From positions 1 to 61,840 of the forward strand of contig CALMML010000441.1 in the NCBI GenBank assembly GCA_937868485.1: a stretch of DNA of 61,840 nucleotides. Reading direction: 5' to 3'. A model generated the notes under the pieces. It was given only the letters and a program-made list of their open reading frames with translations, made no database searches and was not told where the DNA came from. The DNA is from an uncultured Myxococcales bacterium (GTDB lineage Bacteria; Myxococcota_A; Polyangia; Palsa-1104; JAEUJZ01). Of this stretch, positions 1,588-14,910 are shown in pieces; positions within the stretch are counted from its first letter, which is position 1, and every line of letters begins with the position of its first letter. Made by a program: the position numbers and the translations under genes.

Positions 1588-4500
1588 TTACGACTGACGG
1601 ACGCGACCCATGGCGAGCAGCAGACCGGCGTGGTTCGGATCCAGCTCGAGGCCGCGCTCGTACATACCGACGGCCTTCGGACCTTCGCCGAGCTTTTCGT
1701 GGATCTCGCCGAGGTGCAGATAGACATCGGCGCGCGTGACTCCCGAGTTCGGGTCCAGGTTCTGAAGCAGCATCGATCGATAGATGCGACGCGCCTTTTC
1801 CCAGTCCGACTGGTGCATGTACAGCCGACCGAGCGCAATCAGCGTCGGCAAGTGACCCGCGTCGATGCTGTAGGCCGCGTTGTACTGCTCGAGCGCCTTC
1901 AGCAGCTCGCCTTCCTTTTCCGCAATCGAGGCCAAGCGGAAGTGGATGCGCGCCAGATCCTTGCTGCGACGACCCTTGGCAGTGCGCTCGACGAGCGTCT
2001 TATACAGCGGCAGCGCTTCCTTGGTGCGACCGGCGTTGTAGTAGATCTCGGCCAGCGGCTCGACGACCTGAATGTCGTCTGGAGCCAGCTTGTACGCACG
2101 CTGTAGCACCGGCAGAGCACCCTCGGGAGACTTCAGCTCGTTCACGTAGAGTCGGCCCAGCTCGATGAGCAGTTCCTTCTGCTTGGCCACGTCGAGCGAC
2201 TGCATCCGCTCTGCCCGAATTTCGAGCAGCGCCGCGACGCGACGGAAGTCACCACGCGACCGCGCCTGCTTTTCCAGCGCTTCAGCGACTTCGACGTTGG
2301 TCGGATCGGCCTGGAGCGCTCGCTCGTAGTACGGCTCGGCAGCGGCATCGCCCTGACGCTCGGCTTCCATTCGACCGAGCCGATAGTACAGCTCCGCCAT
2401 CTCCACCGAGGTCTTGGCCAGTCGCACCGCTTTTTCGAGCGTCGCCTTGCAGCGCGCCCAGTCGTGCTGCGACTCGTAGATCCGCGCGAGCGACATCAGC
2501 GCACGGACGTGGTTTGGATCAAGCTCCAGCACGCGCTCAAGCAGCTTCTTGGCCTGCTCGGGAGCCTGCACCTTGCCTTCCCAGATCTCGGCGGCACGCA
2601 GCAGCAGCGAGATTTCCTCGTCGAGCTTGTTCAGCTTGTGCGAGGCATCGGCGTGACGAACCAGCACGTCGACCAGCTCGTACCACTTTTCGCCCGCTTC
2701 GAGCAGTCGCTCCAGATCCGCTTGTGCGTCGGGATCGCCCGGCTGAAGCTCCAGCACCTGCTGAAGATGCGACACCGCGTCGTCCACCGACTGGAGTTTT
2801 TCCAGCGAGATCTGCGCGAGCTTACGCAGCACCGCGATCTTGTCCTTCGTCGACGGAACCGCCTTGAAGCGACGACCGAGCACTTCCTGAACCTGCGTCC
2901 AGTCTTCCCGACGAGCGTACAGCGACTCCAGCGCCGACAGCGCCTTGAGCGAGTTTGGCTGAATCTGAAGCAGCTCTCGGTAGACCTCGATGGCCTGCGC
3001 CGACTGATCCAGCTCTTCCGACAGAAGATCGGCGATCCGCGCCAGGATGTTGGCCTTGGCGTTGCCCGACAGAAGCCGCGACTGCGCCGTCAGAACCGAC
3101 ACCAGCTCCTCGAAGCGACGGCCTCGGTGATAAAGCTCTGCCAGCGACGACAGTGCTTTGCCATCCGTCTCGTCCAGCTCCAGGATCTTCTTCCACGCCT
3201 CGACAGCCTTGAACTCGTCGGCGAGCGGTCCTTGATACAGACCCGCAGCCTCGGTCAAAAGCGCCTTCCGCGACGCAGTGGTCTCTTCCAGGCTGGCACG
3301 TCGCAGCAGCATCTCGGCGAGCAGCGTCGAGTCACCACGCTGACGATAGATTCGCTCCAAGGCCGCCAGCGCTTCGTGGTTGTCGCCTTCCAGATCGAGC
3401 ACCGTCTGATAGCGCGTCTCGGCTCGCTGATCGTCCGACAGACGTTCCCAGATTCGCGCCGCCCGCAGACCGAGCGAGCGCTGCATCTCGGCAGCCATCC
3501 GACGACCGCTGTCGCTGGACTTCATGCCAAACGTCACGCGATCGAGCACTTCTTCCAGCTTGAAGGCCGCATCACTGTCGCGACCGCAGCCTCGGGCAAG
3601 TCGCTCCATCTCGTCAGTGAGTCGCGTATCGTCGGGCATCTCGATAAACGCCCGCGCCACCGCGTCGAAGGCCCGCGACGAGTCGCTTAGCTCTTTTTCC
3701 GCCAGGTTGGCAATTCGCTCGAGCAGCGCCGCGCGCTCTGGCTTGCCCTGCGTCACACCGACGCGAACTTCCAGAAGCTCGACGAGCTTGCCAAAGTCAC
3801 GCTCTTGCTCCGCCAGCGGCTCCAGCAGATCGAGCGCCGCCACCGCATGCGCCGGAGAGTTGATGAGACGCTCCACCGCCGCGCGTGCCGCCGTGTGCTG
3901 CGGATGTCGCTCGAGCGACTTGCGGAACGCTTGCAGCGCACCGTCGAGGTCATAGAGCGATCCCGTCTTCAGCTCACCGAGTCGATACAGGAACTCCGCT
4001 TGTTCCGTCGGTGCATCCGCGACTTCCGCCTCGCGTTCCAGCACTTCAGCCAGCTCGCCAAGCGCGCCGTTCTTGAGCAGCAGCCGATCGAGTGCCGCCA
4101 GCGCTTCCATCTCATCGCCGGGCAGCTCACGAACGCGACGATAGCGCTCGATTGCCTTGGTTTCGTCGGACAGGTGCGTTTCGTACAGACCCGCCAGCTT
4201 CAGCGCAAACACCCGCTGAACCTGCGGATCGCTTGCCGTTTCTAGCCGCTGCTCGAAGATCTGGGCCAGCTCGCCGTATTCACCACCGAGCCGCGCCAGA
4301 CGCTCCAGCTCCTGCACCGCTTGCTCGTCAGAGCCGTCCTCGGACAGGATCCGACCCCACGTCGCAAACGCGCTCGCTGCATCCGAGCGACCATTTTCCT
4401 GAAGCTCGGCAATCTGCGACAGAATCCGACGACGCTCACTCGGATCCGCAGCCGACGACAGCGACAGCTCCAGCAGCTCGATGAGCGGCTTCCACTCACG

Positions 4501-7500
4501 GTGCTTGCGATACAGAGGCTCCAGCACCGCCGCAGCCTGCGCTCGCGTCTCGGGCGACTGAACCAGCCGCTCCAGCGCCAGCTTCGCTTCCGCTTGCGTC
4601 GCCAGCACCGCAGCCTGCGCTCGCTTGCCCGCCGGCTCGAAGGTCAGGATCTGCTCGTAGCGACGAATCGCCGCGTCGGATTCCTGAATCTTTTCCTCGG
4701 TGACACGCGCCGCTTGCAGCCACAGGCTCAGACGCTCGCCGACCTGATCATTGGACTCTTTGAGCGACGCCAGCTTGTCGAGGATCTCCAGGTGATCCGC
4801 CCACTGGCTTTCGTTTTCGTACAGCCGACCGAGTGCAACCAGCGCCTCGGTGTCGCTCGGATTGCTCTCGAGCGCGCTCTTGTACGCACCCATCGCTTCG
4901 AACGAATCACCCAGCTTTTCTTCGTACACCCGAGCCATCGCAAAGCGCAGGCTCCGACGAACCGCATCGCTGTCCGCTTGCTCGATCTGCTGACCGTACA
5001 CCCAGGTCAGATCCCGCCACGCATCGCGACCTTCGTACAGCCGACCGAGTGCAACCAGCGCATTTCCGTCGTGATCATCGAGCGAGAGCACCTGACGCCA
5101 CGTCGCAATCGCTTTTTCCGGCGCGCCCAGCACTTTTTCATGCAGATCCGCCGCTGCATACAGCAGTCGCTTCTGCTCTTTTCCGTCGCTGACCAGCGTG
5201 AAGCGCTTTTCGAGCACCGTCACCAGCTCACTCGATCGCAGCTCCGCCGACAGCAGCCGTTCCAGGTTCTGCCACGCGCTGTCGTCTTCGTCGTGAACGC
5301 TCGTCACCTTGCGCCACGCATCGATCGCTTGGCTGCGATCCGACAGCTGCTCGTCGTAGATCCGCGCAATGCGAGCCCACACTCGAGCGACCAGCTCGAA
5401 GTCATACGAGCCTTCGACGGCCTTTTCCAAGATCGACACCAGCTGCGCAAAGCCCGAGGTCAGCCCCGCCAGACGGCAGAGTTCCTCGAACAGCGGCTGC
5501 TCACGCGACTCGCCTTCGCCCGCTTCTTCCAGCCACGCTCGCGACAGCGCTTGGAACGCCGACTGAGGAGCCAGACCGCGCGACTCTTCAATCGTCGCAA
5601 TTTCCCGCAGGATCTCGACGCGACGCAGCTTGTCTTCGACGAACAGAAGCTGAACTTCCAGAAGCTGCGACAGCTTCTGCCACGCATCTTGCCGACGGTA
5701 GATCGGGTCCAAAATCCGCGCCGTGCGATAACGCAGCGCTTCTCTCTCGGGCAGCGACGACAGCAGACGCTCCAGCGCCGACAGTGCAGGCTCGGACTGC
5801 TCGTCTTTGCTCAGCACTTCTTCGTACGCATCAATCGCCTTCGGCAGCTCGTCGAGCTTTTCTTCATACAGACCCGCGAGTCGCAGCTTCAGCTCGCTCC
5901 ACTTGCCAAGCTCCGAAGCGCCGCCCCGATCCGCACGCTCGATGCGACGGATCAGCAGCTCGGCCAGGTCTTGGTAGCGACCCAGCGTCGTATACAGCCG
6001 ATCGAGCGCCAGCGTCGCCTGCTCGTCTTCGCTGTCCAGATCCAGGATCTCGCGGAACGTCTCGATCGCCGCCGTCGGATCCTCGAGTCGCTCTTCCTGC
6101 AGCGCCGACACCTTGAATAGCAGCGACTTTTTGCGATCCAGATCCAGCGTGTCGCGAATCGCATCGCGATACACCGAGTACAGATCGTTCCAGCGCGCTG
6201 CCCGCAGCAGCATCGCTTCGAGCGGCTGGAAGGCCGCCATGTCTTCGGTATTGACGACGAGAAGCCGACGGTAGCACTCCTGCGCCTTCGACACCTGCGC
6301 AAGCCGCTGATCGTAGATTTCAGCCGCCGTACGCAGCACATCGATCGTCGCTGGCTCACTGTCCGCCGTCTGTTCATCCAGATAGCGCTGATACAGCTCG
6401 GCCAGACCTTGCCACGACGACAGAACCCCCGCGAGCCGTGCCAGCTGATCGCGCGTCCAGCCGTCGCCCGGCTGAAGCACAAACACCTTGCCGTACCACG
6501 CAAACGCTTGGCTCAGATCCGAGACTTTGTCCTCGTAGAGCGCCGCGATCGCCTTGGTAAACTCGATCCGCTTCTCGGTGTCGTCGGCGGCATACAGGTG
6601 AATCTCGTGGGTGCGAATCAGCTTCGCCCACGCTCCGCGCGACTCGTAGATCGGCTTGAGCACCCAAGCTGCCGTCACACGCTGATCCGCATCGTCGAGG
6701 AATCGCTCCAGCGCACCGATCGACGGCTCATGCTCCGCATCGACGGTAAGCGCCAGCCGATAGTTTTCGACCGCACGATCCGGGCTCTGTAGCTCTTCCT
6801 CGAACAGCACACCGAGCCGATAGCGCAGATCCACCACCTCGGAATCCGAGCCCGCGTACTTTAGCCGACGCTCCAGCAGGTCCGCCAGATCCGCCCAGCG
6901 CAGGCTGTTTTTGTACAGACGCTCGAGCGAAGTCGCCGACTCCGCATCCGCCGGGAAGAGCGCAAGCACTTGCTCCAACAGCGCAATCGCTTCACTCGGA
7001 CGAGCCAGCTCACGCTCACACAGATCCGCCGCCAGGATCAGATACTGACGACGCTGTCCGTCATCGCGACGATCTTCACGCTGCGCCAGCGAGGCCCGTC
7101 GAGCATAGATCTCCAGCAGCGACTCCAGCTCGCGACCTTCCGCGTAGATCTTTTCCAGCGCTTCGAGCGCCACCAAGTGATCGCTTACGTTGTCGAGCAC
7201 GCGACGGTAATAGTCTCGCGACACATCGCGCTCGCCGAGCGCATACGCTTCCTTCGCAATCTGAAGCAGCACACGCTCTTGCACTCGCGTATCGAGGATC
7301 TGATCCGCAACCTCGCGATACAGCTCGACGAGCTCGCGCTGCGCTTTGTGCGAGTCAACGTGCGTCTCGACGAGATCGAGCAGCTCCGGCAGCTCCGTCT
7401 CTGCGACGGCCAGCCGCACCGCTCGCGCCAGTGCTTCGAGCGCACCACGCGGATCGCCGAGCGTAATCCGCAGCTCCGCCACCTTGCGCAGACGCACGAT

Positions 7501-10500
7501 TCGCTCGTGAACATCGGCCAGGTACGTCGCAAACAGCTCGCTCAGTCGCTCCAGCGCCCGCAGATCGCCGTGCAGCGTGTAGATCGGCTCCAGCACTTCC
7601 GCCGCCCGCAGCCGCAGGCTGTCATCGTCGAGCATCCGCTCCAGACCCTCACGGGCAATCGAGCTACGCGCGTCGTCGATCAGCACCTCACGATAGGCTT
7701 CCAGCGCCGCATCATTGCGACGGAGCGCACCTTCCAGAAGCCCCGCCATCTTCAGACGCAGCGTCACCCGATCCGTCACATCCAGCGTCAGCGGCAGCCG
7801 TCTCTCGAGCATATCGAGCAGGTTCGAGTGCTGCTCCGCCGCTTCATACAGCCGACCGAGCGCATCGATCGCCGGAACGTCCTCGGCACGCTCGCTCAGG
7901 ATCACACCGTACGCCGTAATCGCCTCGTCGCGATCTCCGAGCTTGACCTCGATGACTTCCGCGATCCGCCACAGCAGATCCCGACGGCTCTGACTATCGT
8001 TTGCCAGATCCACCCGTCGACGCAGAATCCCGATCAGATCGGTCCACTGCTCCTTGGCGACGTGCAGCGACTCCAGGGCATCCAGCGCACGCACTTCCTG
8101 CGCGTCCCCGTCGAGAATCTCGCGATACGTCGCAATCGCCGCGTCGCTGTCATCCAGCAGGCTCTGCTGAATCTCACCGATGCGGAACAGCAACGACTTG
8201 CGCTCGTCGCCGTGCGACCACTCTGCCTGACGACGCAGCACGTCGATCAGATCGCGCCACTGCTCTGCCTGCTGATACAGACGAGCCAGCGCCACCGCCG
8301 CCGGACGCGCCGTATCGAGCGAGGTCGGGTCCAGATCGAGCAGCCGCTTCCACGCATCCCGCGCTCGCTCTGCGTCGCTGAGCTTGTGATCGTACAGCTC
8401 CGCCGCTCGACGAAGCAGCTCACCACGCAGCGCCAGGTTGTCCGAGTCCGTCGCGACAAACGCTTCTTCCCACGCCGCCGCCAGATCCTCGAAGCGACCC
8501 AGCGACGTCGCCACGCGCTCGACGTTGCCACGATGCTGCGGGTCCGCCGGATCCAGTCGCAGCGCTTCCCGATACGCACCCAGCGCACCGTCGGGCTTAC
8601 GCAGCTTCTCTTCGGTAATCCGAGCAATCCGCGACAGCAGCGCCGCCGCTTCGGGACTCCGCTCCATCGGCAGCGCTTCTCGCTGCACCGACAGAACCGC
8701 CACCAGCTTGGCAAAGTCGCCGTCTTGCTCAAACAAAGGCTCCAGCGTTCGCGCAATGCGCTGACGCAGGCCGTAGTTGTCCATCAAGCTCTCGAGCGTC
8801 CGACGAGCGCCCTTGTGCTTGGGCTGCTCCGACAGCGCTTCCTCGAGAAGCTCGCACGCACCATCGGGATCATCGAGCCGAACCGCGTGCAGCTCACCGC
8901 GACGGAAGCGAAGCTGCGCCCGATCGACCACCGAGTCCACATGCGGCACCGCACGCGCCAGCAAGTCGTCCAGCTCACGCCAGCGCTCTGCCGCCGTGTG
9001 AAGTCGTTCCAGTGCCTTAAAGGCCCGCGTGTTCGACGGATCCAGCTCCAGGATCTCAGCGTAGTCACGCGACGCAGCCTCTTCGTCTTCCAGCACACCT
9101 TCATCGAGATCGCAGATCTGGAACAGCAGCTCTTTGCGATCGCTCGGCTCGACGGCCAGATCCTTGCGACGCTCGAGCAACCGACGCAGCTCCGGGAACC
9201 GCTCCCCGGCGCGATAGATCTCTTCCAGCGCGCGCGCCGCACCTTCGTGCGACTCATCACTTTCGAGCACGCGAATGTACGCAGCCTCGGCCTTCTCGAT
9301 CTCGTGAAGCTGCTCACCGAAGAGCTGACCCAAGTCCCAGGCCAGATCGCGCGCCAGCTGATTGTCGCCCGCTCGACGAGCCGCCCGCTCCGCATCTTCC
9401 AGCAGCTCCGCGACCGCTTCCTGACGCTCCAGCGTCTCACCCAGCTCGATCAGCTCGTGCCGGTTGTCGTGATCGTAGGGAACGCGCTCGAACAGCCGCG
9501 CCGCAAACTTGTAGGCATTTTCGACGTCGCCCAGCTTGCGAACCAGACCCGCGAGCCGACGCAGAAGCTCCAGCTCCTCCGCCGCATCCACCGTCGCTGA
9601 CAGCACGATTTCCAGCGCCGCCGCCAGCTTTCGCGTGTCATCCGCCCGCTCGTACGCCGGCACCAGCAGCCGCGCCACTTCGACGCGCACCGGATTCGAC
9701 GGAACCAGGAATCGCTCCAGCGCAACCAGCGTCGGACGATGTCCCGCCGTCAGCTGAAGCACCTGACGATAGCGCTCCAGCGCTTTTTCCGGCTTGTCCA
9801 GATGCAGCTCGTACAGCTCACCGAGCTGGAAGCTGATCATGATCTGCGTCTCGATGTCGCGCTCCGACCGCTCGCTGCCCGACTGAGACTGCGCGATGTG
9901 CTGAAGCTGTGCCTCGAGCACTTCCGCCAGCGACTCCGAGTCACCCGACTGCGTATAGATCTTTTCGAGCGCTCGCAGTGCCCGCATCGTCGTCGCCATC
10001 GACGCATTCGACGCCGACTCGGCCAAGATTCGACGATACGTTGCCGCCGCTGCGCCTCGATCGCTCAGCTTGTTTTCTTCGACGCTGGCCATACGGAACA
10101 GAACGTCGGTACGTTTGCTCTGATCCGCCTGGCTCTCGACGCGCTTGCGATAGATGCCCAGCAGCTCGGGATACTTTTCCTGCGACTGGAAGATCTGCTC
10201 GAGCGCCGTCAGCGCTTCTTCGTCGAGCGGAATCTTGGCCAGCACCTGTTCCCAATAGCCGCGCGCCTCGTCGAGACGATGCAGCTTCTGCTGCGTCCAC
10301 TGACCGAGCAGCCGCAGACGAGCCAGCTTGTGCGCACCGTCGTCCAGCTTTTCCACCTGACGCGCGTAGATCGAAACCAGCTCGTTCCAGGTGTCCGCTT
10401 CGCCCGCCAGCCGTCGCAGCTCCGACTCCAGCTGCTGCCGAGGCCGACTGTCGAGCGACTCCGACTCACGCAGCGCATACGCCTTCGACAGCCACGAAAA

Positions 10501-13086
10501 CGCCAGCGGCTTGGCCGACAGCTTCTGCTCGGCCAGCTCCGCGATCTTGTGCATGTGCTGGATCTTTTCCGCGTCGCTCTGCGCGTGTCCCAGCAGCACT
10601 TCGTACATCGCCAGCAGCCGAGGCCACTTCTCCGTCGCCTGATAAATCGGAAGCAGTGCCGTCGCTGCCGCCAGATGCTGCGGCTCAACAACCAGCACCC
10701 GCTCAAACGCTTTTTGCGCCTTGTCCTGGCTCGCCAGCTGCGACTTGGCCACCCGCGCCGATCGCAGATACAGGTCAATTCGCGTCGCTGACTGCTCCGC
10801 ACGCTCGGCCAGCGCCAGCAGCACTTCGTACAGCTCGTCCCACTGCGCCTGCTGACCGTACAGCCGCTCCAGCTCGTCGTACTGACCGGCCTGACCGTAC
10901 AGCTCGCGCAGCGTTCGCATCGCCTTCTGATGCGTCGGCTGAAGTCGCACGATCTCGCGATAGACATCCACCGCCGGAGCCGCCGCCAGCAGCTTTTCCG
11001 CCAGCAGCGTGCCGATCTTTTCGAGCAGCGCCACCTGCGTCTTCACATCTTTGCTGCGCGACTTCTGACGGAGCAGCACCTCGATGAGCGCCACAAAGCG
11101 CTTTTCTTTTTCGTACAGGCTCGCCAGCGCCGACAGCGCACCTTCGTCGTTTTCGTCGATCTCCAGCAGCCGGTTCCAGATCCCGATCGCTTCGATGCTG
11201 TCGCCCAGACGATCCTGCGCCAGCTTCGCCAGCTCCGTCAGACGCGTCCGACGCTCTTTGAGCCACGCCTCGCTGCTCGGCAGCCGCTCGGGATGCGCTT
11301 CCAGCACATCGAGCTGACGACGTTCCAGGTCCAGCAGCGACCGCCACGACCGACGCTTGTTGTAGATGTCGCGCAGCCGCGTCACCGTCTCTGCATCGTC
11401 GGGATCGATCGCGTACAGGTCTTCCAGCGGCTTGACCGCCTGGTTGTGGTTCGAAAACTTGTCGATCCACAGCTGCGCCACTCGCTTGAGCAGCCGCGCC
11501 TGTTCCGCCCGCGACTCCGGCGACTTCGCCAGCAGATCCGCCTTGCGCTGCAGCACGCCGATCAGGTCGTTCCAGCGCGCCATCGCCTCGTACTTCTGGC
11601 CCAGCGCGTCGAGCGCCCCCAGATGCTCCGGCTTGAGCGCCAAGATCGCCGTGTAGGTGTTGATCACCATCGCGTCGAGCTTCAGACGATCGCGATAGAT
11701 CGCCACCACTTCCAGCAACCGCTCGATCCGCTGATCAAGCTGCGCCGGATCGTCCTTCGACAGCGACTCCGCCTGCTCCTTGAGCATCTCCAGCAGCGCG
11801 TTCCACTTTTCCGTCCGCGTATACAGCCGCTTGAGCGCCGCGCCCGCCTCGCCATGACCCGGCGACAGCTTCAGCACCGACTTCCAGATGTCGATCGCTT
11901 TGTCGAGCCCGCCCGGCGACGACTCTGCCACCTGCGCCATCTCGATACCGAGCGCCAGCCGTCGGCCCGCGTCGTTTTCGACCTTCTGCGCCTGCGTCAG
12001 CACCGCCAGCAGCTTGCTCGAGTCATCCGCCGTCGGCTTGCCCGTGCCTTTGCCGTCGTAGTACGAGCGATAAAAGTCCAGCATCTCAGGCTGCGCCGGA
12101 TCGACCTTGCGCACCCGCTGGTAGTACTCGCTCGCCTGCTCGTAGTTCTTCAGCTTGTGGAAATACAGCCGACCGATCTCGAGCACCGTCGGAAGCTCGC
12201 TCTCGGTACGCTGACGGACCTTCAGCGCCTGCTCATACAGCTTGATGAGCGACGAAAAGTCCTGCTTTTCCGTGTACAGCGACACCAGCGCCGACAGCGC
12301 CCGTCCGTTCGCCGGATCGATCTGCAGCGCCTTCTTGTGCGAATCCACCGCCGCGTCGTGGTTCTTGAGCTGCTTGCCGTACAGATCGGCCAAGCTCAGC
12401 AGCGCCAGCACGCGATCTTCCTTCGTCGCTGCGCTCTCCGATCGCTGCTCCAGCGTCTTGATAAGCTCCGGCCACTTCTTCTGCGCCCGGAACAAACGCT
12501 CAAGGTGCAGCGACGCACGACGATTGCGCGGCTCGACCGACAGCGCCTTGTACCAGTAGCTCTCGGCGTCGCCCGTCTGAGCGCTGTACTTTCCGTAGTA
12601 CTCACCGATGCGCGTATACAGGTCGGTGGTCAGCTGTCGCTCCGTCGAGCGCTTGGCTTCATCAAGCCACTTCTGAACCACCTTCTGCCAGTTCCCCTTC
12701 ACCGCCGAGAGCTGCTCCAGCGCATCTTGCGCCGACTCGCTCTCTGCATCCGCCGCCAGCGCTGCTTGATACGCAGCTTCTGCCTGACTTTCCGACAAGA
12801 GCTCGTCGCAGCAAACCCGGCCCTTTTCAACCAGGAGCTCCGCTCGCTCACTGGCCACCGTCACCAGGCCGGAATCGAGGAGAACGTCACACAGAGCGAG
12901 CCACAGCTCTGCATCGCCGCGCTCGCGATAACGCTTCTGGGCCTCGCGCACCGCCGTCTTGGCCTGCGCTGCCGCTTCACTCGAAGACTGGGCCGCAACC
13001 TTCGCTACCGCCACAAGCCGCTCTCGGGCTTGAGCCTGCGTCGGGTCGCTATCCAAGGTCGCGAGTGCCTGCACGATATCTGTCAT
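1588..13086 (-). CDS. Giant TPR-repeat protein (about 3830 aa), AgmK/GltI-like in size and architecture
   Basis: Uninterrupted ORF made of helical repeats (A..AYR.VL..DP....AL.AL.RLY); no signal peptide; start placed at MTDIVQ, 35 nt below a sigma70-like promoter. Orthology to AgmK not established. Confidence 0.9.
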   Translation of the reverse strand: MTDIVQALATLDSDPTQAQARERLVAVAKVAAQSSSEAAAQAKTAVREAQKRYRERGDAELWLALCDVLLDSGLVTVASERAELLVEKGRVCCDELLSESQAEAAYQAALAADAESESAQDALEQLSAVKGNWQKVVQKWLDEAKRSTERQLTTDLYTRIGEYYGKYSAQTGDAESYWYKALSVEPRNRRASLHLERLFRAQKKWPELIKTLEQRSESAATKEDRVLALLSLADLYGKQLKNHDAAVDSHKKALQIDPANGRALSALVSLYTEKQDFSSLIKLYEQALKVRQRTESELPTVLEIGRLYFHKLKNYEQASEYYQRVRKVDPAQPEMLDFYRSYYDGKGTGKPTADDSSKLLAVLTQAQKVENDAGRRLALGIEMAQVAESSPGGLDKAIDIWKSVLKLSPGHGEAGAALKRLYTRTEKWNALLEMLKEQAESLSKDDPAQLDQRIERLLEVVAIYRDRLKLDAMVINTYTAILALKPEHLGALDALGQKYEAMARWNDLIGVLQRKADLLAKSPESRAEQARLLKRVAQLWIDKFSNHNQAVKPLEDLYAIDPDDAETVTRLRDIYNKRRSWRSLLDLERRQLDVLEAHPERLPSSEAWLKERRTRLTELAKLAQDRLGDSIEAIGIWNRLLEIDENDEGALSALASLYEKEKRFVALIEVLLRQKSRSKDVKTQVALLEKIGTLLAEKLLAAAPAVDVYREIVRLQPTHQKAMRTLRELYGQAGQYDELERLYGQQAQWDELYEVLLALAERAEQSATRIDLYLRSARVAKSQLASQDKAQKAFERVLVVEPQHLAAATALLPIYQATEKWPRLLAMYEVLLGHAQSDAEKIQHMHKIAELAEQKLSAKPLAFSWLSKAYALRESESLDSRPRQQLESELRRLAGEADTWNELVSIYARQVEKLDDGAHKLARLRLLGQWTQQKLHRLDEARGYWEQVLAKIPLDEEALTALEQIFQSQEKYPELLGIYRKRVESQADQSKRTDVLFRMASVEENKLSDRGAAAATYRRILAESASNASMATTMRALRALEKIYTQSGDSESLAEVLEAQLQHIAQSQSGSERSERDIETQIMISFQLGELYELHLDKPEKALERYRQVLQLTAGHRPTLVALERFLVPSNPVRVEVARLLVPAYERADDTRKLAAALEIVLSATVDAAEELELLRRLAGLVRKLGDVENAYKFAARLFERVPYDHDNRHELIELGETLERQEAVAELLEDAERAARRAGDNQLARDLAWDLGQLFGEQLHEIEKAEAAYIRVLESDESHEGAARALEEIYRAGERFPELRRLLERRKDLAVEPSDRKELLFQICDLDEGVLEDEEAASRDYAEILELDPSNTRAFKALERLHTAAERWRELDDLLARAVPHVDSVVDRAQLRFRRGELHAVRLDDPDGACELLEEALSEQPKHKGARRTLESLMDNYGLRQRIARTLEPLFEQDGDFAKLVAVLSVQREALPMERSPEAAALLSRIARITEEKLRKPDGALGAYREALRLDPADPQHRGNVERVATSLGRFEDLAAAWEEAFVATDSDNLALRGELLRRAAELYDHKLSDAERARDAWKRLLDLDPTSLDTARPAAVALARLYQQAEQWRDLIDVLRRQAEWSHGDERKSLLFRIGEIQQSLLDDSDAAIATYREILDGDAQEVRALDALESLHVAKEQWTDLIGILRRRVDLANDSQSRRDLLWRIAEVIEVKLGDRDEAITAYGVILSERAEDVPAIDALGRLYEAAEQHSNLLDMLERRLPLTLDVTDRVTLRLKMAGLLEGALRRNDAALEAYREVLIDDARSSIAREGLERMLDDDSLRLRAAEVLEPIYTLHGDLRALERLSELFATYLADVHERIVRLRKVAELRITLGDPRGALEALARAVRLAVAETELPELLDLVETHVDSHKAQRELVELYREVADQILDTRVQERVLLQIAKEAYALGERDVSRDYYRRVLDNVSDHLVALEALEKIYAEGRELESLLEIYARRASLAQREDRRDDGQRRQYLILAADLCERELARPSEAIALLEQVLALFPADAESATSLERLYKNSLRWADLADLLERRLKYAGSDSEVVDLRYRLGVLFEEELQSPDRAVENYRLALTVDAEHEPSIGALERFLDDADQRVTAAWVLKPIYESRGAWAKLIRTHEIHLYAADDTEKRIEFTKAIAALYEDKVSDLSQAFAWYGKVFVLQPGDGWTRDQLARLAGVLSSWQGLAELYQRYLDEQTADSEPATIDVLRTAAEIYDQRLAQVSKAQECYRRLLVVNTEDMAAFQPLEAMLLRAARWNDLYSVYRDAIRDTLDLDRKKSLLFKVSALQEERLEDPTAAIETFREILDLDSEDEQATLALDRLYTTLGRYQDLAELLIRRIERADRGGASELGKWSELKLRLAGLYEEKLDELPKAIDAYEEVLSKDEQSEPALSALERLLSSLPEREALRYRTARILDPIYRRQDAWQKLSQLLEVQLLFVEDKLRRVEILREIATIEESRGLAPQSAFQALSRAWLEEAGEGESREQPLFEELCRLAGLTSGFAQLVSILEKAVEGSYDFELVARVWARIARIYDEQLSDRSQAIDAWRKVTSVHDEDDSAWQNLERLLSAELRSSELVTVLEKRFTLVSDGKEQKRLLYAAADLHEKVLGAPEKAIATWRQVLSLDDHDGNALVALGRLYEGRDAWRDLTWVYGQQIEQADSDAVRRSLRFAMARVYEEKLGDSFEAMGAYKSALESNPSDTEALVALGRLYENESQWADHLEILDKLASLKESNDQVGERLSLWLQAARVTEEKIQESDAAIRRYEQILTFEPAGKRAQAAVLATQAEAKLALERLVQSPETRAQAAAVLEPLYRKHREWKPLIELLELSLSSAADPSERRRILSQIAELQENGRSDAASAFATWGRILSEDGSDEQAVQELERLARLGGEYGELAQIFEQRLETASDPQVQRVFALKLAGLYETHLSDETKAIERYRRVRELPGDEMEALAALDRLLLKNGALGELAEVLEREAEVADAPTEQAEFLYRLGELKTGSLYDLDGALQAFRKSLERHPQHTAARAAVERLINSPAHAVAALDLLEPLAEQERDFGKLVELLEVRVGVTQGKPERAALLERIANLAEKELSDSSRAFDAVARAFIEMPDDTRLTDEMERLARGCGRDSDAAFKLEEVLDRVTFGMKSSDSGRRMAAEMQRSLGLRAARIWERLSDDQRAETRYQTVLDLEGDNHEALAALERIYRQRGDSTLLAEMLLRRASLEETTASRKALLTEAAGLYQGPLADEFKAVEAWKKILELDETDGKALSSLAELYHRGRRFEELVSVLTAQSRLLSGNAKANILARIADLLSEELDQSAQAIEVYRELLQIQPNSLKALSALESLYARREDWTQVQEVLGRRFKAVPSTKDKIAVLRKLAQISLEKLQSVDDAVSHLQQVLELQPGDPDAQADLERLLEAGEKWYELVDVLVRHADASHKLNKLDEEISLLLRAAEIWEGKVQAPEQAKKLLERVLELDPNHVRALMSLARIYESQHDWARCKATLEKAVRLAKTSVEMAELYYRLGRMEAERQGDAAAEPYYERALQADPTNVEVAEALEKQARSRGDFRRVAALLEIRAERMQSLDVAKQKELLIELGRLYVNELKSPEGALPVLQRAYKLAPDDIQVVEPLAEIYYNAGRTKEALPLYKTLVERTAKGRRSKDLARIHFRLASIAEKEGELLKALEQYNAAYSIDAGHLPTLIALGRLYMHQSDWEKARRIYRSMLLQNLDPNSGVTRADVYLHLGEIHEKLGEGPKAVGMYERGLELDPNHAGLLLAMGRVRQS
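4816..5061. repeat. Exact 30-bp duplication inside the giant TPR gene
   Basis: TTCGTACAGCCGACCGAGTGCAACCAGCGC at 4816-4845 and 5032-5061 (216 bp apart), encoding ALVALGRLYE. Confidence 0.9.
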
Positions 13087-13127
13087 GGGTATGGGCCTTT
13101 TGCGTAGGTATCTTTTTGGACCGCACG

Positions 13128-13157
13128 ATTCTAACTCTTGCCGCGTCAATTAGACAA
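13128..13157 (-). promoter_or_regulatory. sigma70-like promoter of the giant TPR gene
   Basis: Minus strand TTGTCT(13157-13152)-18 nt-TAGAAT(13133-13128). Confidence 0.55.
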
Positions 13158-13274
13158 GAAGCTTGGCCGCTTCTACCTGCAAGGAACCAAACAGGAATTT
13201 GGCAAATCGCCATCTTTATTCATGTGTTTTTCGGACCATGGAAACATCCTGTCACCTGGCCTTTGTGTGTCTTG

Positions 13275-13291
13275 AATTGGTCTGACCAAAA
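13275..13291. promoter_or_regulatory. FadR/GntR-type operator palindrome
   Basis: AATTGGTCTGACCAAAA; perfect TTGGTC-T-GACCAA palindrome, matching the TGGTCnGACCA FadR-subfamily core. Confidence 0.55.
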
Positions 13292-13437
13292 TCGATCACT
13301 CCGTACCTTCAGCAATAACTGTGGACCGTTTCGGTAAGGTGGATCGCCCCCCAAATCGACGAAAAACGGCACCTTGGGCCGCTGCTTAAATTTTAGGCGC
13401 TGACAAGAAAGTGCCTGCAAATCAGCCAGATCCGACC

Positions 13438-13738
13438 TGTGTACACACAGTTATTCACAGGTTGTCCATGATCCGGTGTGGAGCGCTGTGGCAGCAGGTA
13501 GCGCGTGGTAGCAGAAGGTCCGCACTGGCCGACAACACGCCGCAGCTCGCGACAATGTACGAACCGCTCTCCGTTCGCTTCCACGCTACGCACAGGTGGT
13601 TATTTGCCAGACAATCGCCTGACATGAAGTCAAAACGCACAATCATCAATACGCTGTGCGCAAGTGACTTCACTGTGCATTCAACGCACGCATCAGATCT
13701 TCACTATGTGGATACTACGCAGCGACTGTGTGGGATAA
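13438..13738. other. Cluster of DnaA-box-like sequences (candidate oriC or DnaA-regulated site)
   Basis: TTATTCACA (13451-13459) and TGTGGATAC (13707-13715) are each 1 mismatch from TTATCCACA; several weaker copies flank them, in a region of about 45-47% GC by spot count. Confidence 0.35.
13477..13521 (+). repeat. 10-bp-periodic direct repeats (GTGG/GTAG), MraZ-operator-like
   Basis: GTGGAG (13478), GTGGCA (13488), GTAGCG (13498), GTAGCA (13508), partial GTCC (13518). Confidence 0.6.
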
Positions 13739-13791
13739 AGAGAGAAATACGAGGACAGGCGAGAGCGAATCGAGCCGACTACGAGGCAGTC

Positions 13792-14910
13792 TTAGGCGAG
13801 ATAGCGCGGTGTGTTGCCGAGCGAAAACCACGGACGAAGCTGAACCACCGACTGCATCGGAACCATCCGCGACGCCGGATCTTGGTTAAAAAAGTCCGAC
13901 AGCAGGCCGTATAGCTCCGGGTGATGGCTGCGCAGCCGCGTCGAGTCTTGAAAGAAGCTCTCGACGGACACCGCGAACAGCTCTGCTTCGTTCTTCAGCC
14001 CATACGGATTGAGCACCGAGTTGCCGTCCATCAGACGCTCCCGCTCGATCGCAAGCTGCTGATGCCACTCTCGCTGCACACTCGGCGGCAGCAGCACCGG
14101 CACGCCCGTCGAGCGTCCTTGCTGACCCAGAAAGTCGAGGACGTGCGCAAACTCATGCAGCCCGACGTGCGACTGCGCAAACTGCGGCTGGCTCTGGAAT
14201 AGCCCACTTCCGTGCAGCCAGCTCTGACGACGAGGAAAGCTCTGCTCGATCGCCGCAATCGCAAACAGAATCGGACCTTGCGCGTGGACCATGCCAATCG
14301 CGTGCGCGTTCTGCTCCATCGAGTACGTCTCCTCGGCAAACGAGGTCGGATAGACCACGATGTCGCGATCCGTCGGCAGCCGCCAGTCCGGTCGTCCCAG
14401 AAGCAGGATCGCCGCGCTCGCCGCAATCAGCACGCGATGCTCGTCGGTCAGCTTCACCTGCGCCGCGTCGTCGCCGTCTTCCAGCCCACCGAGCGCATAG
14501 ATCCGCTGCTCCCCCAAAAACACCGCAACTTCCCCTTCGAAGCGACGCTTTTCGTCGTCGGTCAGCTGCACGTACAGCGGCACACGCTGACGGAGCACAT
14601 CGCGAAAGGCATCGGGAAACGGCGCGGCCAGCAGCTTCTGACGCAGTCGCTCTCGACGAGCAAAGATCAGATAGTACGCGACGCCCACCATCAGCCCGAG
14701 CGGCGCGACAAACACCGGCATCCTCGGAATCGCGGCCAGCGCCACCAGCGCAGCCAGACCGACCAGCGACGACAAGATCCGATAATCTCGCAGCGCCGTG
14801 CTGCCATCCGGGGTCACCGGAAACAGCTTCGCGGACCAATCAGCCAGCCAGGATGAAGAGCGACGCTCAGACGACGATCCAGCTTCAGCGGACTTGTGCG
14901 AACTCGACAT
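13792..14910 (-). CDS. Zinc-dependent peptidase, MtfA/M90 family, with N-terminal TM helices
   Basis: HVGLHEFAHVLD (HExxH), NPYG..N.AE.FAV..E.FF, HPELY.LL..FF.QDP, all typical of MtfA. Confidence 0.88.
   Translation of the reverse strand: MSSSHKSAEAGSSSERRSSSWLADWSAKLFPVTPDGSTALRDYRILSSLVGLAALVALAAIPRMPVFVAPLGLMVGVAYYLIFARRERLRQKLLAAPFPDAFRDVLRQRVPLYVQLTDDEKRRFEGEVAVFLGEQRIYALGGLEDGDDAAQVKLTDEHRVLIAASAAILLLGRPDWRLPTDRDIVVYPTSFAEETYSMEQNAHAIGMVHAQGPILFAIAAIEQSFPRRQSWLHGSGLFQSQPQFAQSHVGLHEFAHVLDFLGQQGRSTGVPVLLPPSVQREWHQQLAIERERLMDGNSVLNPYGLKNEAELFAVSVESFFQDSTRLRSHHPELYGLLSDFFNQDPASRMVPMQSVVQLRPWFSLGNTPRYLA

What the first reader, a model, noticed from the sequence alone, without database searches (positions are those of the whole stretch)
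13438..13738. 640-bp lower-GC intergenic region with DnaA-box-like sites: candidate oriC or DnaA titration locus not next to dnaA
Seen: the TPR core promoter ends at 13157, leaving about 630 bp unexplained (45-47% GC in spot counts). It holds TTATTCACA (13451) flanked in tandem by degenerate GTACACACA (13441) and TTGTCCATG (13462), plus TGTGGATAC (13707), TGTGGGATAA (13729), TGTGCATTC (13674), the palindrome TGTGTACACA (13438) and five GATC sites. Established: oriC, datA and DARS are DnaA-box clusters and need not sit next to dnaA. Limits: only two boxes are within one mismatch, and no canonical DnaA-trio run beside a box was found.
Basis: partly seen in the sequence, partly recalled or inferred. 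Interest (0 to 1): 0.62.

Follow-up and report, generated by a model that had tools for sequence, protein, structure and literature searches.

The report
Secondary DnaA-box site, not an origin
This stretch is not the chromosome's replication origin, which lies in front of dnaN on another contig; it is the control region of a giant TPR gene and carries one deeply conserved pair of probable DnaA-binding sites of unknown role.

Summary
The window is a contig of an uncultured Polyangia (Myxococcota) genome. All quoted strings sit at the stated coordinates. Only two are within one mismatch of TTATCCACA, none has exactly two, GATC is at genome average, and overall GC is 51-52%.

The oriC reading is refuted:
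- The best DnaA-box cluster in this genome lies directly upstream of dnaN (contig C488:760-990), with 8 boxes plus a GATC cluster. It is conserved in relatives.
- In two relatives the GC skew changes sign there. It stays negative across 211-346 kb around the homologue of this locus.
- The boxes at 13674, 13707 and 13729 are not conserved even in the closest relative.

One part is real. The box at 13451 is the core of a 14-mer (AACCTGTGAATAAC on the minus strand). This 14-mer occurs exactly once per genome in 12 of 23 family genomes, always between the M90-peptidase gene and the giant TPR gene.

The syntax TGTGNATAA-N3-TGTG occurs only three times in the 6.36-Mb genome: at the dnaA promoter, at the dnaN-proximal oriC, and here.

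My best reading is a conserved secondary DnaA-binding module, regulatory or titrating, about 250 bp upstream of the conserved TPR-gene promoter. DnaA binding itself is untested.

The parts
13087..13791 (.). Non-coding gap between the giant TPR gene start (ATG 13086, minus strand) and the M90-peptidase stop (13792, minus strand); 51.4% GC
13128..13157 (-). Core sigma-70-type promoter of the TPR gene: -35 TTGTCT (13157-13152), 18-bp spacer, -10 TAGAAT (13133-13128). TTGnnn-N18-TAGAAT is conserved across 5 genera, apart from TATTAT at the -10 in G014
13087..13121 (-). Inferred short 5' leader, nearly invariant in the genus, with no obvious Shine-Dalgarno sequence
   Evidence: the transcription start is inferred from the -10 position
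13181..13201 (.). Genus-conserved direct repeat (C/A)AGGAAC-N4-CAGGAAT about 60-80 bp upstream of the inferred start; candidate activator site
   Evidence: function inferred
13277..13289 (.). Genus-conserved palindrome TTGGTC-T-GACCAA; candidate operator
13380..13492 (-). Distal module. About 90 bp is conserved family-wide with fixed internal spacing. Its distance to the promoter is variable (about 200-500 bp between genera)
13384..13398 (.). Near-palindrome GCCTAAAATTTAAGC (family consensus CnGCCTAAnTTTTAGGCAG) at the promoter-proximal end of the module
13451..13459 (+). DnaA box TTATTCACA (fits TTATNCACA), the core of the invariant 14-mer at 13450-13463 (AACCTGTGAATAAC on the minus strand)
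13439..13447 (+). Tandem partner box at 12-bp pitch. It has decayed here (rc TGTGTACAC) and in G007 (TGTGTGTAC). It reads TGTGGG(C/T/A)nn in the other 10 of 12 genomes that carry the 14-mer
13476..13484 (+). Oppositely oriented half-box TGTGGAGCG (TCCACA core). TGTGGA is invariant in the genus only
13674..13738 (.). TGTGCATTC, TGTGGATAC and TGTGGGATAA: not conserved even in the closest relative (G007); chance matches

Best explanation
This region is not an origin of replication. It is the upstream non-coding region of a 3832-aa TPR-repeat gene and has two conserved parts.

(1) A sigma-70-type core promoter (TTGTCT-N18-TAGAAT, 13157-13128) with a short leader.

(2) About 250 bp further upstream, an autonomous module of roughly 90 bp (13380-13492). 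Its core is a tandem pair of DnaA boxes at 12-bp pitch, TGTGAATAA-ctg-TGTGGGnnn on the minus strand. The second box has decayed in this genome. The module ends in a near-palindrome.

Inferred mechanism: DnaA binds the strong box and cooperatively binds its neighbour, as it does at the identically built tandems in the genus's oriC and dnaA promoter. The site would then either couple transcription of the neighbouring giant gene to DnaA status or act as a small secondary DnaA sink.

Shown: the anatomy, the conservation, the shared syntax, and the location of the real oriC upstream of dnaN.

Inferred: DnaA binding at this site and any effect on transcription or DnaA availability.
For: Evidence that this is not oriC:
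- dnaN-upstream cluster. C488:760-990 holds 8 boxes in both orientations plus 4 GATC in 30 bp. It is conserved in G001, G003, G004 and G007, and G001 has 4 perfect and 5 one-mismatch boxes.
- dnaA promoter. TTATCCACAccTGTGGATAAgtcTGTGGATGG sits about 100 bp upstream of dnaA.
- GC skew at dnaN. The skew turns from negative to positive at dnaN in G007:C37. The cumulative minimum is in the 100-110 kb window of G004:C31, which holds dnaN.
- GC skew at this locus. It stays negative in 31 of 34 windows (G003:C51, 346 kb) and 17 of 21 windows (G007:C48, 211 kb) around the homologue. It is negative on both sides of 13.4 kb in the window itself.

Evidence for a real DnaA-type site:
- The exact 14-mer occurs once per genome in 12 of 23 family genomes, with 0 hits for the reversed control. 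It always lies between the M90 gene and the TPR gene.
- CCTGTGAATAACNNTGTGG with <=1 mismatch, searched in 42 genomes of the order, otherwise hits only tandem DnaA boxes directly upstream of dnaN (G001, G010) or of dnaA (G003), plus one identical string in G002 whose context I did not check.
- In this genome TGTGNATAA-N3-TGTG occurs 3 times (0.22 expected): at the dnaA promoter, at oriC, and here.
- Only 20 TTATNCACA sites exist in 6.36 Mb, against about 62 expected.
- G010 has TGTGAATAA in a box tandem about 240 bp upstream of its dnaN.
- G001 has lost the module sequence but keeps ATATCCACA at the corresponding place.

Evidence against a coding or structured-RNA element: there is no conserved ORF, no Rfam hit and no conserved RNA fold.
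Against: - There is no binding or expression data.
- In this genome the partner box has decayed, so only one good box remains.
- Invariance covers 14 nt, more than a 9-bp box needs, so another or an additional factor may be involved.
- The module is absent from 11 of 23 family genomes. Seven of these belong to genus g3. A separate set of upstream regions of TPR-gene homologues about 60% identical (L017-L020, L022-L024), not shown here to be g3, also lacks it.
- Its variable distance to the promoter (about 200-500 bp) is unusual for a classical activator or repressor site.
- Two similar palindromes, GCCTATTTTCTAGGC, lie between two ORFs that appear to converge at C224:23784 and 23819 (ORF calls only). 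This hints at a hairpin or RNA-level role for that part.
- With a PWM built from the oriC boxes, the site scores 13.8 bits, and about 140-440 sites in the genome score 12-14 bits or more. The single 12-mer alone is therefore not rare.
Confidence: 0.55

Rival explanations
1. The module is a chromosomal DnaA-cycle control element of the datA/DARS type. DnaA oligomers would form on the boxes, helped by an accessory protein bound at the palindrome, and would change DnaA's nucleotide state or titrate it.
For: - It is an autonomous module with fixed internal spacing but a variable distance to both flanking genes.
- There is one copy per genome across at least 5 genera.
- The box syntax is shared with oriC and the dnaA promoter.
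- In the genus, two tandem boxes plus one oppositely oriented TCCACA half-box recall the DARS core, where box I is opposite to boxes II and III (PMC5742627).
Against: - Only one high-quality box is universally conserved.
- The opposite half-box is confined to the genus and matches 6 of 9 positions.
- No IHF or Fis site can be called.
- The module is absent from 11 of 23 family genomes.
- Its position relative to oriC is unknown because the assemblies are fragmented.
Confidence: 0.13
2. The resemblance to DnaA boxes is coincidental. The module would instead be bound by another transcription factor, or act at the RNA level as a conserved 3'-UTR, small RNA or terminator element downstream of the M90-peptidase gene.
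For: - Invariance extends over 14 nt plus a further 8 nt, beyond a 9-bp box.
- The module ends in a hairpin-capable palindrome that resembles two palindromes between ORFs that appear to converge on C224.
- The module lies 100-410 nt downstream of the M90 stop codon.
- Substitutions in G008 keep the hairpin through G-U pairs on the sense strand only (my reading of the alignment).
Against: - Consensus RNA folds are weak (-3.4 and -2.8 kcal/mol) and show no covariation on either strand.
- There is no Rfam match.
- No U-tract follows the hairpin in the genus.
- The box-tandem pattern is otherwise found only next to dnaN or dnaA, apart from one G002 hit not checked.
Confidence: 0.27
3. The region is the chromosomal origin (oriC), or a second origin.
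For: - It is a long non-coding region with lower GC than the genome.
- It has two boxes within one mismatch.
Against: - The skew does not switch here in the window or across 211-346 kb of relatives.
- There is no box excess at <=2 mismatches.
- GATC is not enriched.
- Half of the boxes are not conserved.
- A canonical oriC with 8 boxes, a GATC cluster and a skew switch lies upstream of dnaN.
- No parS or parB is on this contig.
Confidence: 0.02

Closest known systems
DnaA-box promoters and operators outside oriC (DnaA acting as a transcription factor, for example dnaA autoregulation)
   Same: One strong box plus a weaker neighbour in non-coding DNA upstream of a gene. The tandem syntax is identical to that at this organism's own dnaA promoter.
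   Different: It sits about 250 bp or more upstream of the promoter, at a distance that varies between genera. The target is a giant TPR gene with no known link to replication. No expression data are available.
E. coli DARS1/DARS2 (DnaA-reactivating sequences)
   Same: A non-coding, single-copy, conserved site away from oriC. In the genus there are two tandem boxes and one opposite half-box, as in the DARS core (PMC5742627).
   Different: The third box is weak and confined to the genus. No IHF or Fis sites can be identified. No activity has been tested. The lineage is unrelated (Myxococcota).
E. coli datA, and the DnaA-box clusters of Bacillus subtilis and Streptomyces
   Same: A DnaA-binding locus away from oriC that could titrate or inactivate DnaA.
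   Different: Minimal datA needs three same-direction boxes plus an IHF site (PMC5742627). The clusters in B. subtilis and Streptomyces hold several good boxes (my own knowledge). Here there are at most two.
oriC upstream of dnaN in the same genome (C488:760-990)
   Same: It shares the box tandem CTGTG(G/A)ATAAC-NN-TGTGGG.
   Different: oriC has 8 or more boxes in both orientations, a GATC cluster and the skew switch. This locus has none of these.

Membership tests
oriC | Cluster of several DnaA boxes, more than chance would give | tested here: not met
   There are 2 boxes at <=1 mismatch and none with exactly 2. Shuffles give 1.7 at <=2 mismatches. Only one box is conserved.
oriC | GC-skew sign change at the locus | tested here: not met
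   The skew is negative on both sides in the window and across G003:C51 and G007:C48. The switch lies at dnaN instead.
oriC | AT-rich unwinding element, or DnaA-trios, or a GATC cluster next to the boxes | tested here: not met
   GATC is at the genome-average density. The 100-bp window next to the conserved box reaches 65% GC. DnaA-trios were not formally scanned.
oriC | Unique best box cluster of the genome | tested here: not met
   Better clusters lie at C488 (dnaN) and C237 (dnaA).
DARS | Core of three DnaA boxes, with box I opposite to boxes II and III (PMC5742627) | tested here: inconclusive
   The genus has a tandem pair plus an opposite TCCACA half-box that matches 6 of 9 positions. Other genera lack the third box, and this genome's second box has decayed.
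DARS | Promotes ADP release from DnaA | not testable with these tools
   This is a biochemical assay.
datA | Three essential same-direction boxes plus an IHF-binding site (PMC5742627) | tested here: not met
   There are at most two same-direction boxes, and no IHF consensus could be called.
DnaA box (single binding site) | Match to TTATNCACA | tested here: met
   TTATTCACA at 13451 is one of 20 such sites in the genome. The same variant occurs in a box tandem about 240 bp upstream of G010's dnaN.
DnaA box (single binding site) | Evolutionary conservation of the box | tested here: met
   It is invariant in 12 genomes from at least 5 genera.
DnaA box (single binding site) | Bound by DnaA | not testable with these tools
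   This needs ChIP, a gel shift or footprinting.
Structured non-coding RNA | Conserved secondary structure with covariation, or an Rfam match | tested here: not met

The most novel reading that the evidence does not exclude
The roughly 90-bp module (tandem DnaA boxes, a fixed spacer and a palindrome) is a DARS/datA-like chromosomal element in Polyangia that controls the DnaA nucleotide cycle or DnaA availability, with the palindrome binding an accessory protein. That would be a DnaA-cycle control site outside the few lineages (E. coli and relatives, Bacillus, Streptomyces) in which DnaA-control or titration loci away from oriC have been described.
Probability: 0.12. Interest if true: 0.65.

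Novelty: new member of a known kind. Interest (0 to 1): 0.3.

Why it matters
The main claim, an origin or large DnaA-box cluster away from dnaA, is wrong. The record should instead place oriC of this genus directly upstream of dnaN, which is unlinked to dnaA.

What remains is modest but real. A single-copy non-coding module conserved across the family shares the tandem-box syntax of oriC and the dnaA promoter. If DnaA binds it, it links replication status to a giant TPR scaffold gene, or it provides a secondary DnaA site in Myxococcota, where control of initiation is little studied. It is a cheap target for a gel-shift or ChIP experiment.

Tried and rejected
- Rfam scan of 12900-14000 at E<=10: only noise.
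- Small-ORF hypothesis: there is no ORF with a conserved frame across species. A recurring peptide simply mirrors conserved DNA and is broken by a stop in G006.
- RNA structure on both strands, at genus and family level: energies are weak and there is no supporting covariation.
- Second promoter near the module: I inspected it by eye for sigma-70, sigma-54 and ECF-type promoters. No conserved hexamer pair with workable spacing was found, and the scanner finds only the core promoter on the gene strand.
- dif site: rejected, because there is no XerC/D-type inverted arms and no skew switch.
- Recurrent regulon motif: the 14-mer and the 48-bp block are unique in the genome.
- GC skew on G001:C1 was too noisy to place the origin, with the minimum about 25 kb from dnaN. 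G004:C31 has an unexplained positive stretch at 1-40 kb.

Full report
**Context.** The window is the whole of contig C441 of a 514-contig, 6.36-Mb, 61.3% GC genome. Homologous contigs in public records are labelled Myxococcales or Polyangia MAGs. The finding lies in a 704-bp non-coding gap (13087-13791). On one side is the start of a 3832-aa all-TPR protein gene on the minus strand (1588-13086). On the other is the stop of an M90/MtfA-family peptidase gene, also on the minus strand (13792-14910). This gene order is kept across the family.

**Checking the observation.**
- The gap is 51.4% GC overall, which puts it in the lowest 0.6% of 700-bp windows in the genome. The 42-47% values hold only for some 100-bp spots.
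- GATC is not enriched: 7.9 per kb here against 8.2 per kb genome-wide.
- Only TTATTCACA (13451) and TGTGGATAC (13707) are within one mismatch of TTATCCACA.
- No site has exactly two mismatches, so all the 'degenerate' boxes have three or more. The count at <=2 mismatches (2) equals the shuffle expectation (1.7).
- Two near-consensus boxes are locally unusual (P about 0.007). Genome-wide there are 22 such pairs within 500 bp against about 16 expected.

**Where the origin really is.**
- dnaA is split between contigs C237 and C498, and dnaN is on C488.
- The best box cluster in the genome lies directly upstream of dnaN, at C488:775-857. The next best sits about 100 bp upstream of dnaA and reads TTATCCACAccTGTGGATAAgtcTGTGGATGG.
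- The dnaN-upstream region (C488:760-990) carries eight boxes in both orientations, followed by four GATC sites in 30 bp. It is almost invariant in four relatives, and one of them (G001) has four perfect boxes at 12-bp pitch plus five one-mismatch boxes.
- dnaA and dnaN are on different contigs in all four relatives checked, at least about 19-25 kb apart.
- In G007, the closest relative, the skew is negative for 0-20 kb and positive from 20 to 113 kb, with dnaN at 19.5 kb. In G004 the cumulative minimum falls in the 100-110 kb window that holds dnaN.
- The contigs carrying the homologue of the finding show negative skew throughout: 31 of 34 10-kb windows in G003:C51 (locus at 156 kb) and 17 of 21 in G007:C48 (locus at 158 kb).
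- In the window itself the skew is negative on both sides of 13.4 kb.
- parB is on C112 and three parS-like sites are on C63. Neither is in the window.
- G001's skew was too noisy to use.

**What is conserved.** BLAST against 40 relatives finds the first ~405 bp of the gap (13088-13492) in most species of the genus. The rest (13493-13791) matches only partly, and only in the closest relative. Identity to the six genus members by segment:

| Segment | Identity |
|---|---|
| Promoter and leader (13087-13160) | 82-95% |
| Spacer (13161-13379) | 52-83% |
| Distal module (13380-13492) | 66-90% |
| Box tandem (13443-13464) | 91-100% |
| Beyond 13492 | 19-71% |

The boxes at 13674, 13707 and 13729 fall in the unconserved part and are absent even from G007. 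The core promoter TTGTCT-N18-TAGAAT (13157-13128) is conserved across five genera as TTGnnn-N18-TAGAAT, except that G014 reads TATTAT at the -10.

**The conserved box.**
- The exact 14-mer AACCTGTGAATAAC (minus strand, 13450-13463, containing the 13451 box) occurs once per genome in 12 of 23 family genomes from at least 5 genera. The reversed control gives zero hits.
- In all cases it lies between the M90 gene and the TPR gene. It is 100-410 nt downstream of the M90 stop and 314-603 nt upstream of the TPR ATG.
- The family alignment shows a module of about 90 bp with fixed internal spacing: AACCTGTGAATAAC-YR-TGTGGGC, about 40 nt containing GnACTTTG, then CnGCCTAAnTTTTAGGCAG. A spacer of variable length and no conservation (about 200-500 bp) separates it from the promoter.

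**Is it a DnaA site?**
- The element reads as two boxes at 12-bp pitch, TGTGAATAA-nnn-TGTGGGnnn. This is the arrangement of boxes 1 and 2 of the genus's oriC (TGTGGATAAcatTGTGGGTAA) and of the dnaA promoter.
- I searched 42 genomes of the order for CCTGTGAATAACNNTGTGG with up to one mismatch. Besides this locus, it hits tandem DnaA boxes directly upstream of dnaN in G001 and G010 and directly upstream of dnaA in G003. It also hits one identical string in G002, whose context I did not check.
- In the window's own genome TGTGNATAA-N3-TGTG occurs three times against 0.22 expected, with 0 hits for the reversed control: at the dnaA promoter, at oriC and here.
- TTATNCACA is rare in this genome: 20 sites against about 62 expected from composition.
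- G010 has the same TGTGAATAA variant in a box tandem about 240 bp upstream of its dnaN.
- G001 has lost the module sequence but keeps ATATCCACA at the corresponding position.

There are caveats. In this genome and in G007 the second box has decayed (TGTGTACAC and TGTGTGTAC). The invariant stretch is longer than a 9-bp box. With a PWM built from the oriC boxes, the single site scores 13.8 bits, a level reached by more than a hundred sites in the genome.

**Alternatives examined.**
- No ORF is conserved, there is no Rfam family match, and consensus RNA folds on either strand are weak and lack covariation.
- I found no conserved second promoter near the module, by eye or with the scanner.
- The terminal palindrome resembles two copies of GCCTATTTTCTAGGC that lie between two ORFs that appear to converge on C224 (ORF calls only). 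This keeps an RNA-hairpin role for that part open.
- The datA and DARS definitions were taken from PMC5742627. datA requires three same-direction boxes plus an IHF site, which is not met here. The DARS core has box I opposite to boxes II and III. That arrangement is only loosely mirrored in the genus by a TCCACA half-box at 13476-13484, and not at all in other genera.

**Verdict.**
- This is not oriC (about 0.97 sure). The origin of this genus lies upstream of dnaN.
- The most likely function is secondary DnaA binding with a regulatory or mild titrating effect (0.55).
- Another factor or an RNA-level role is the main rival (0.27).
- A genuine datA/DARS-like role is possible but weakly supported (0.13).

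Noticed in passing
Genome contig C488:760-990 (locus L003:760-990), not in the window: Likely oriC of this genus, directly upstream of dnaN. It has eight DnaA boxes in both orientations, then GGATCTATAGATCTAGAGATCCAGATC (four GATC in 30 bp), and is nearly invariant in four relatives. dnaA is on other contigs in the four relatives checked, so dnaA and dnaN are unlinked.
   Followed up: partly
Genome contig C237:2646-2677 (locus L002:1393-1424): The dnaA promoter carries TTATCCACAccTGTGGATAAgtcTGTGGATGG, one box opposite to two tandem boxes. The inverted pair is conserved in G003, G004 and G007, while the third box differs slightly between relatives. The dnaA gene itself is split by a contig break (C237/C498).
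   Followed up: partly
Genome contig C63:5248-5363: Three parS-like sites (TGTTCCACGTGGAAC[GA]) at exact 50-bp spacing. parB is on a different contig (C112:64112-64639).
   Followed up: no
window 13277-13289 and 13181-13201: Genus-conserved palindrome TTGGTC-T-GACCAA and direct repeat (C/A)AGGAAC-N4-CAGGAAT between the module and the core promoter. These are probable operator or activator sites for the TPR gene. Neither is conserved in other genera.
   Followed up: partly
Genome contig C224:23784-23833 (locus L119:2785-2834): Two copies of the palindrome GCCTATTTTCTAGGC, 35 bp apart, between two ORFs that appear to converge. They resemble the palindrome at 13384-13398. They may be hairpin terminators or sites for a shared binding protein.
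   Followed up: partly
L101 (G008:C1, about 1758130-1758200), just upstream of the module: In genus g2 the module is preceded by a tandem array of about 11 bp units (GGGACACCCAG-like).
   Followed up: no
window 13087-13121: The leader of the giant TPR gene is nearly invariant in the genus and has no recognisable Shine-Dalgarno sequence.
   Followed up: no
whole genome: TTATNCACA is about 3-fold under-represented: 20 sites against about 62 expected from base composition. Further isolated perfect boxes in low-GC surroundings are at C67:5751, C123:19197 and C379:8715, and could be other DnaA targets.
   Followed up: no
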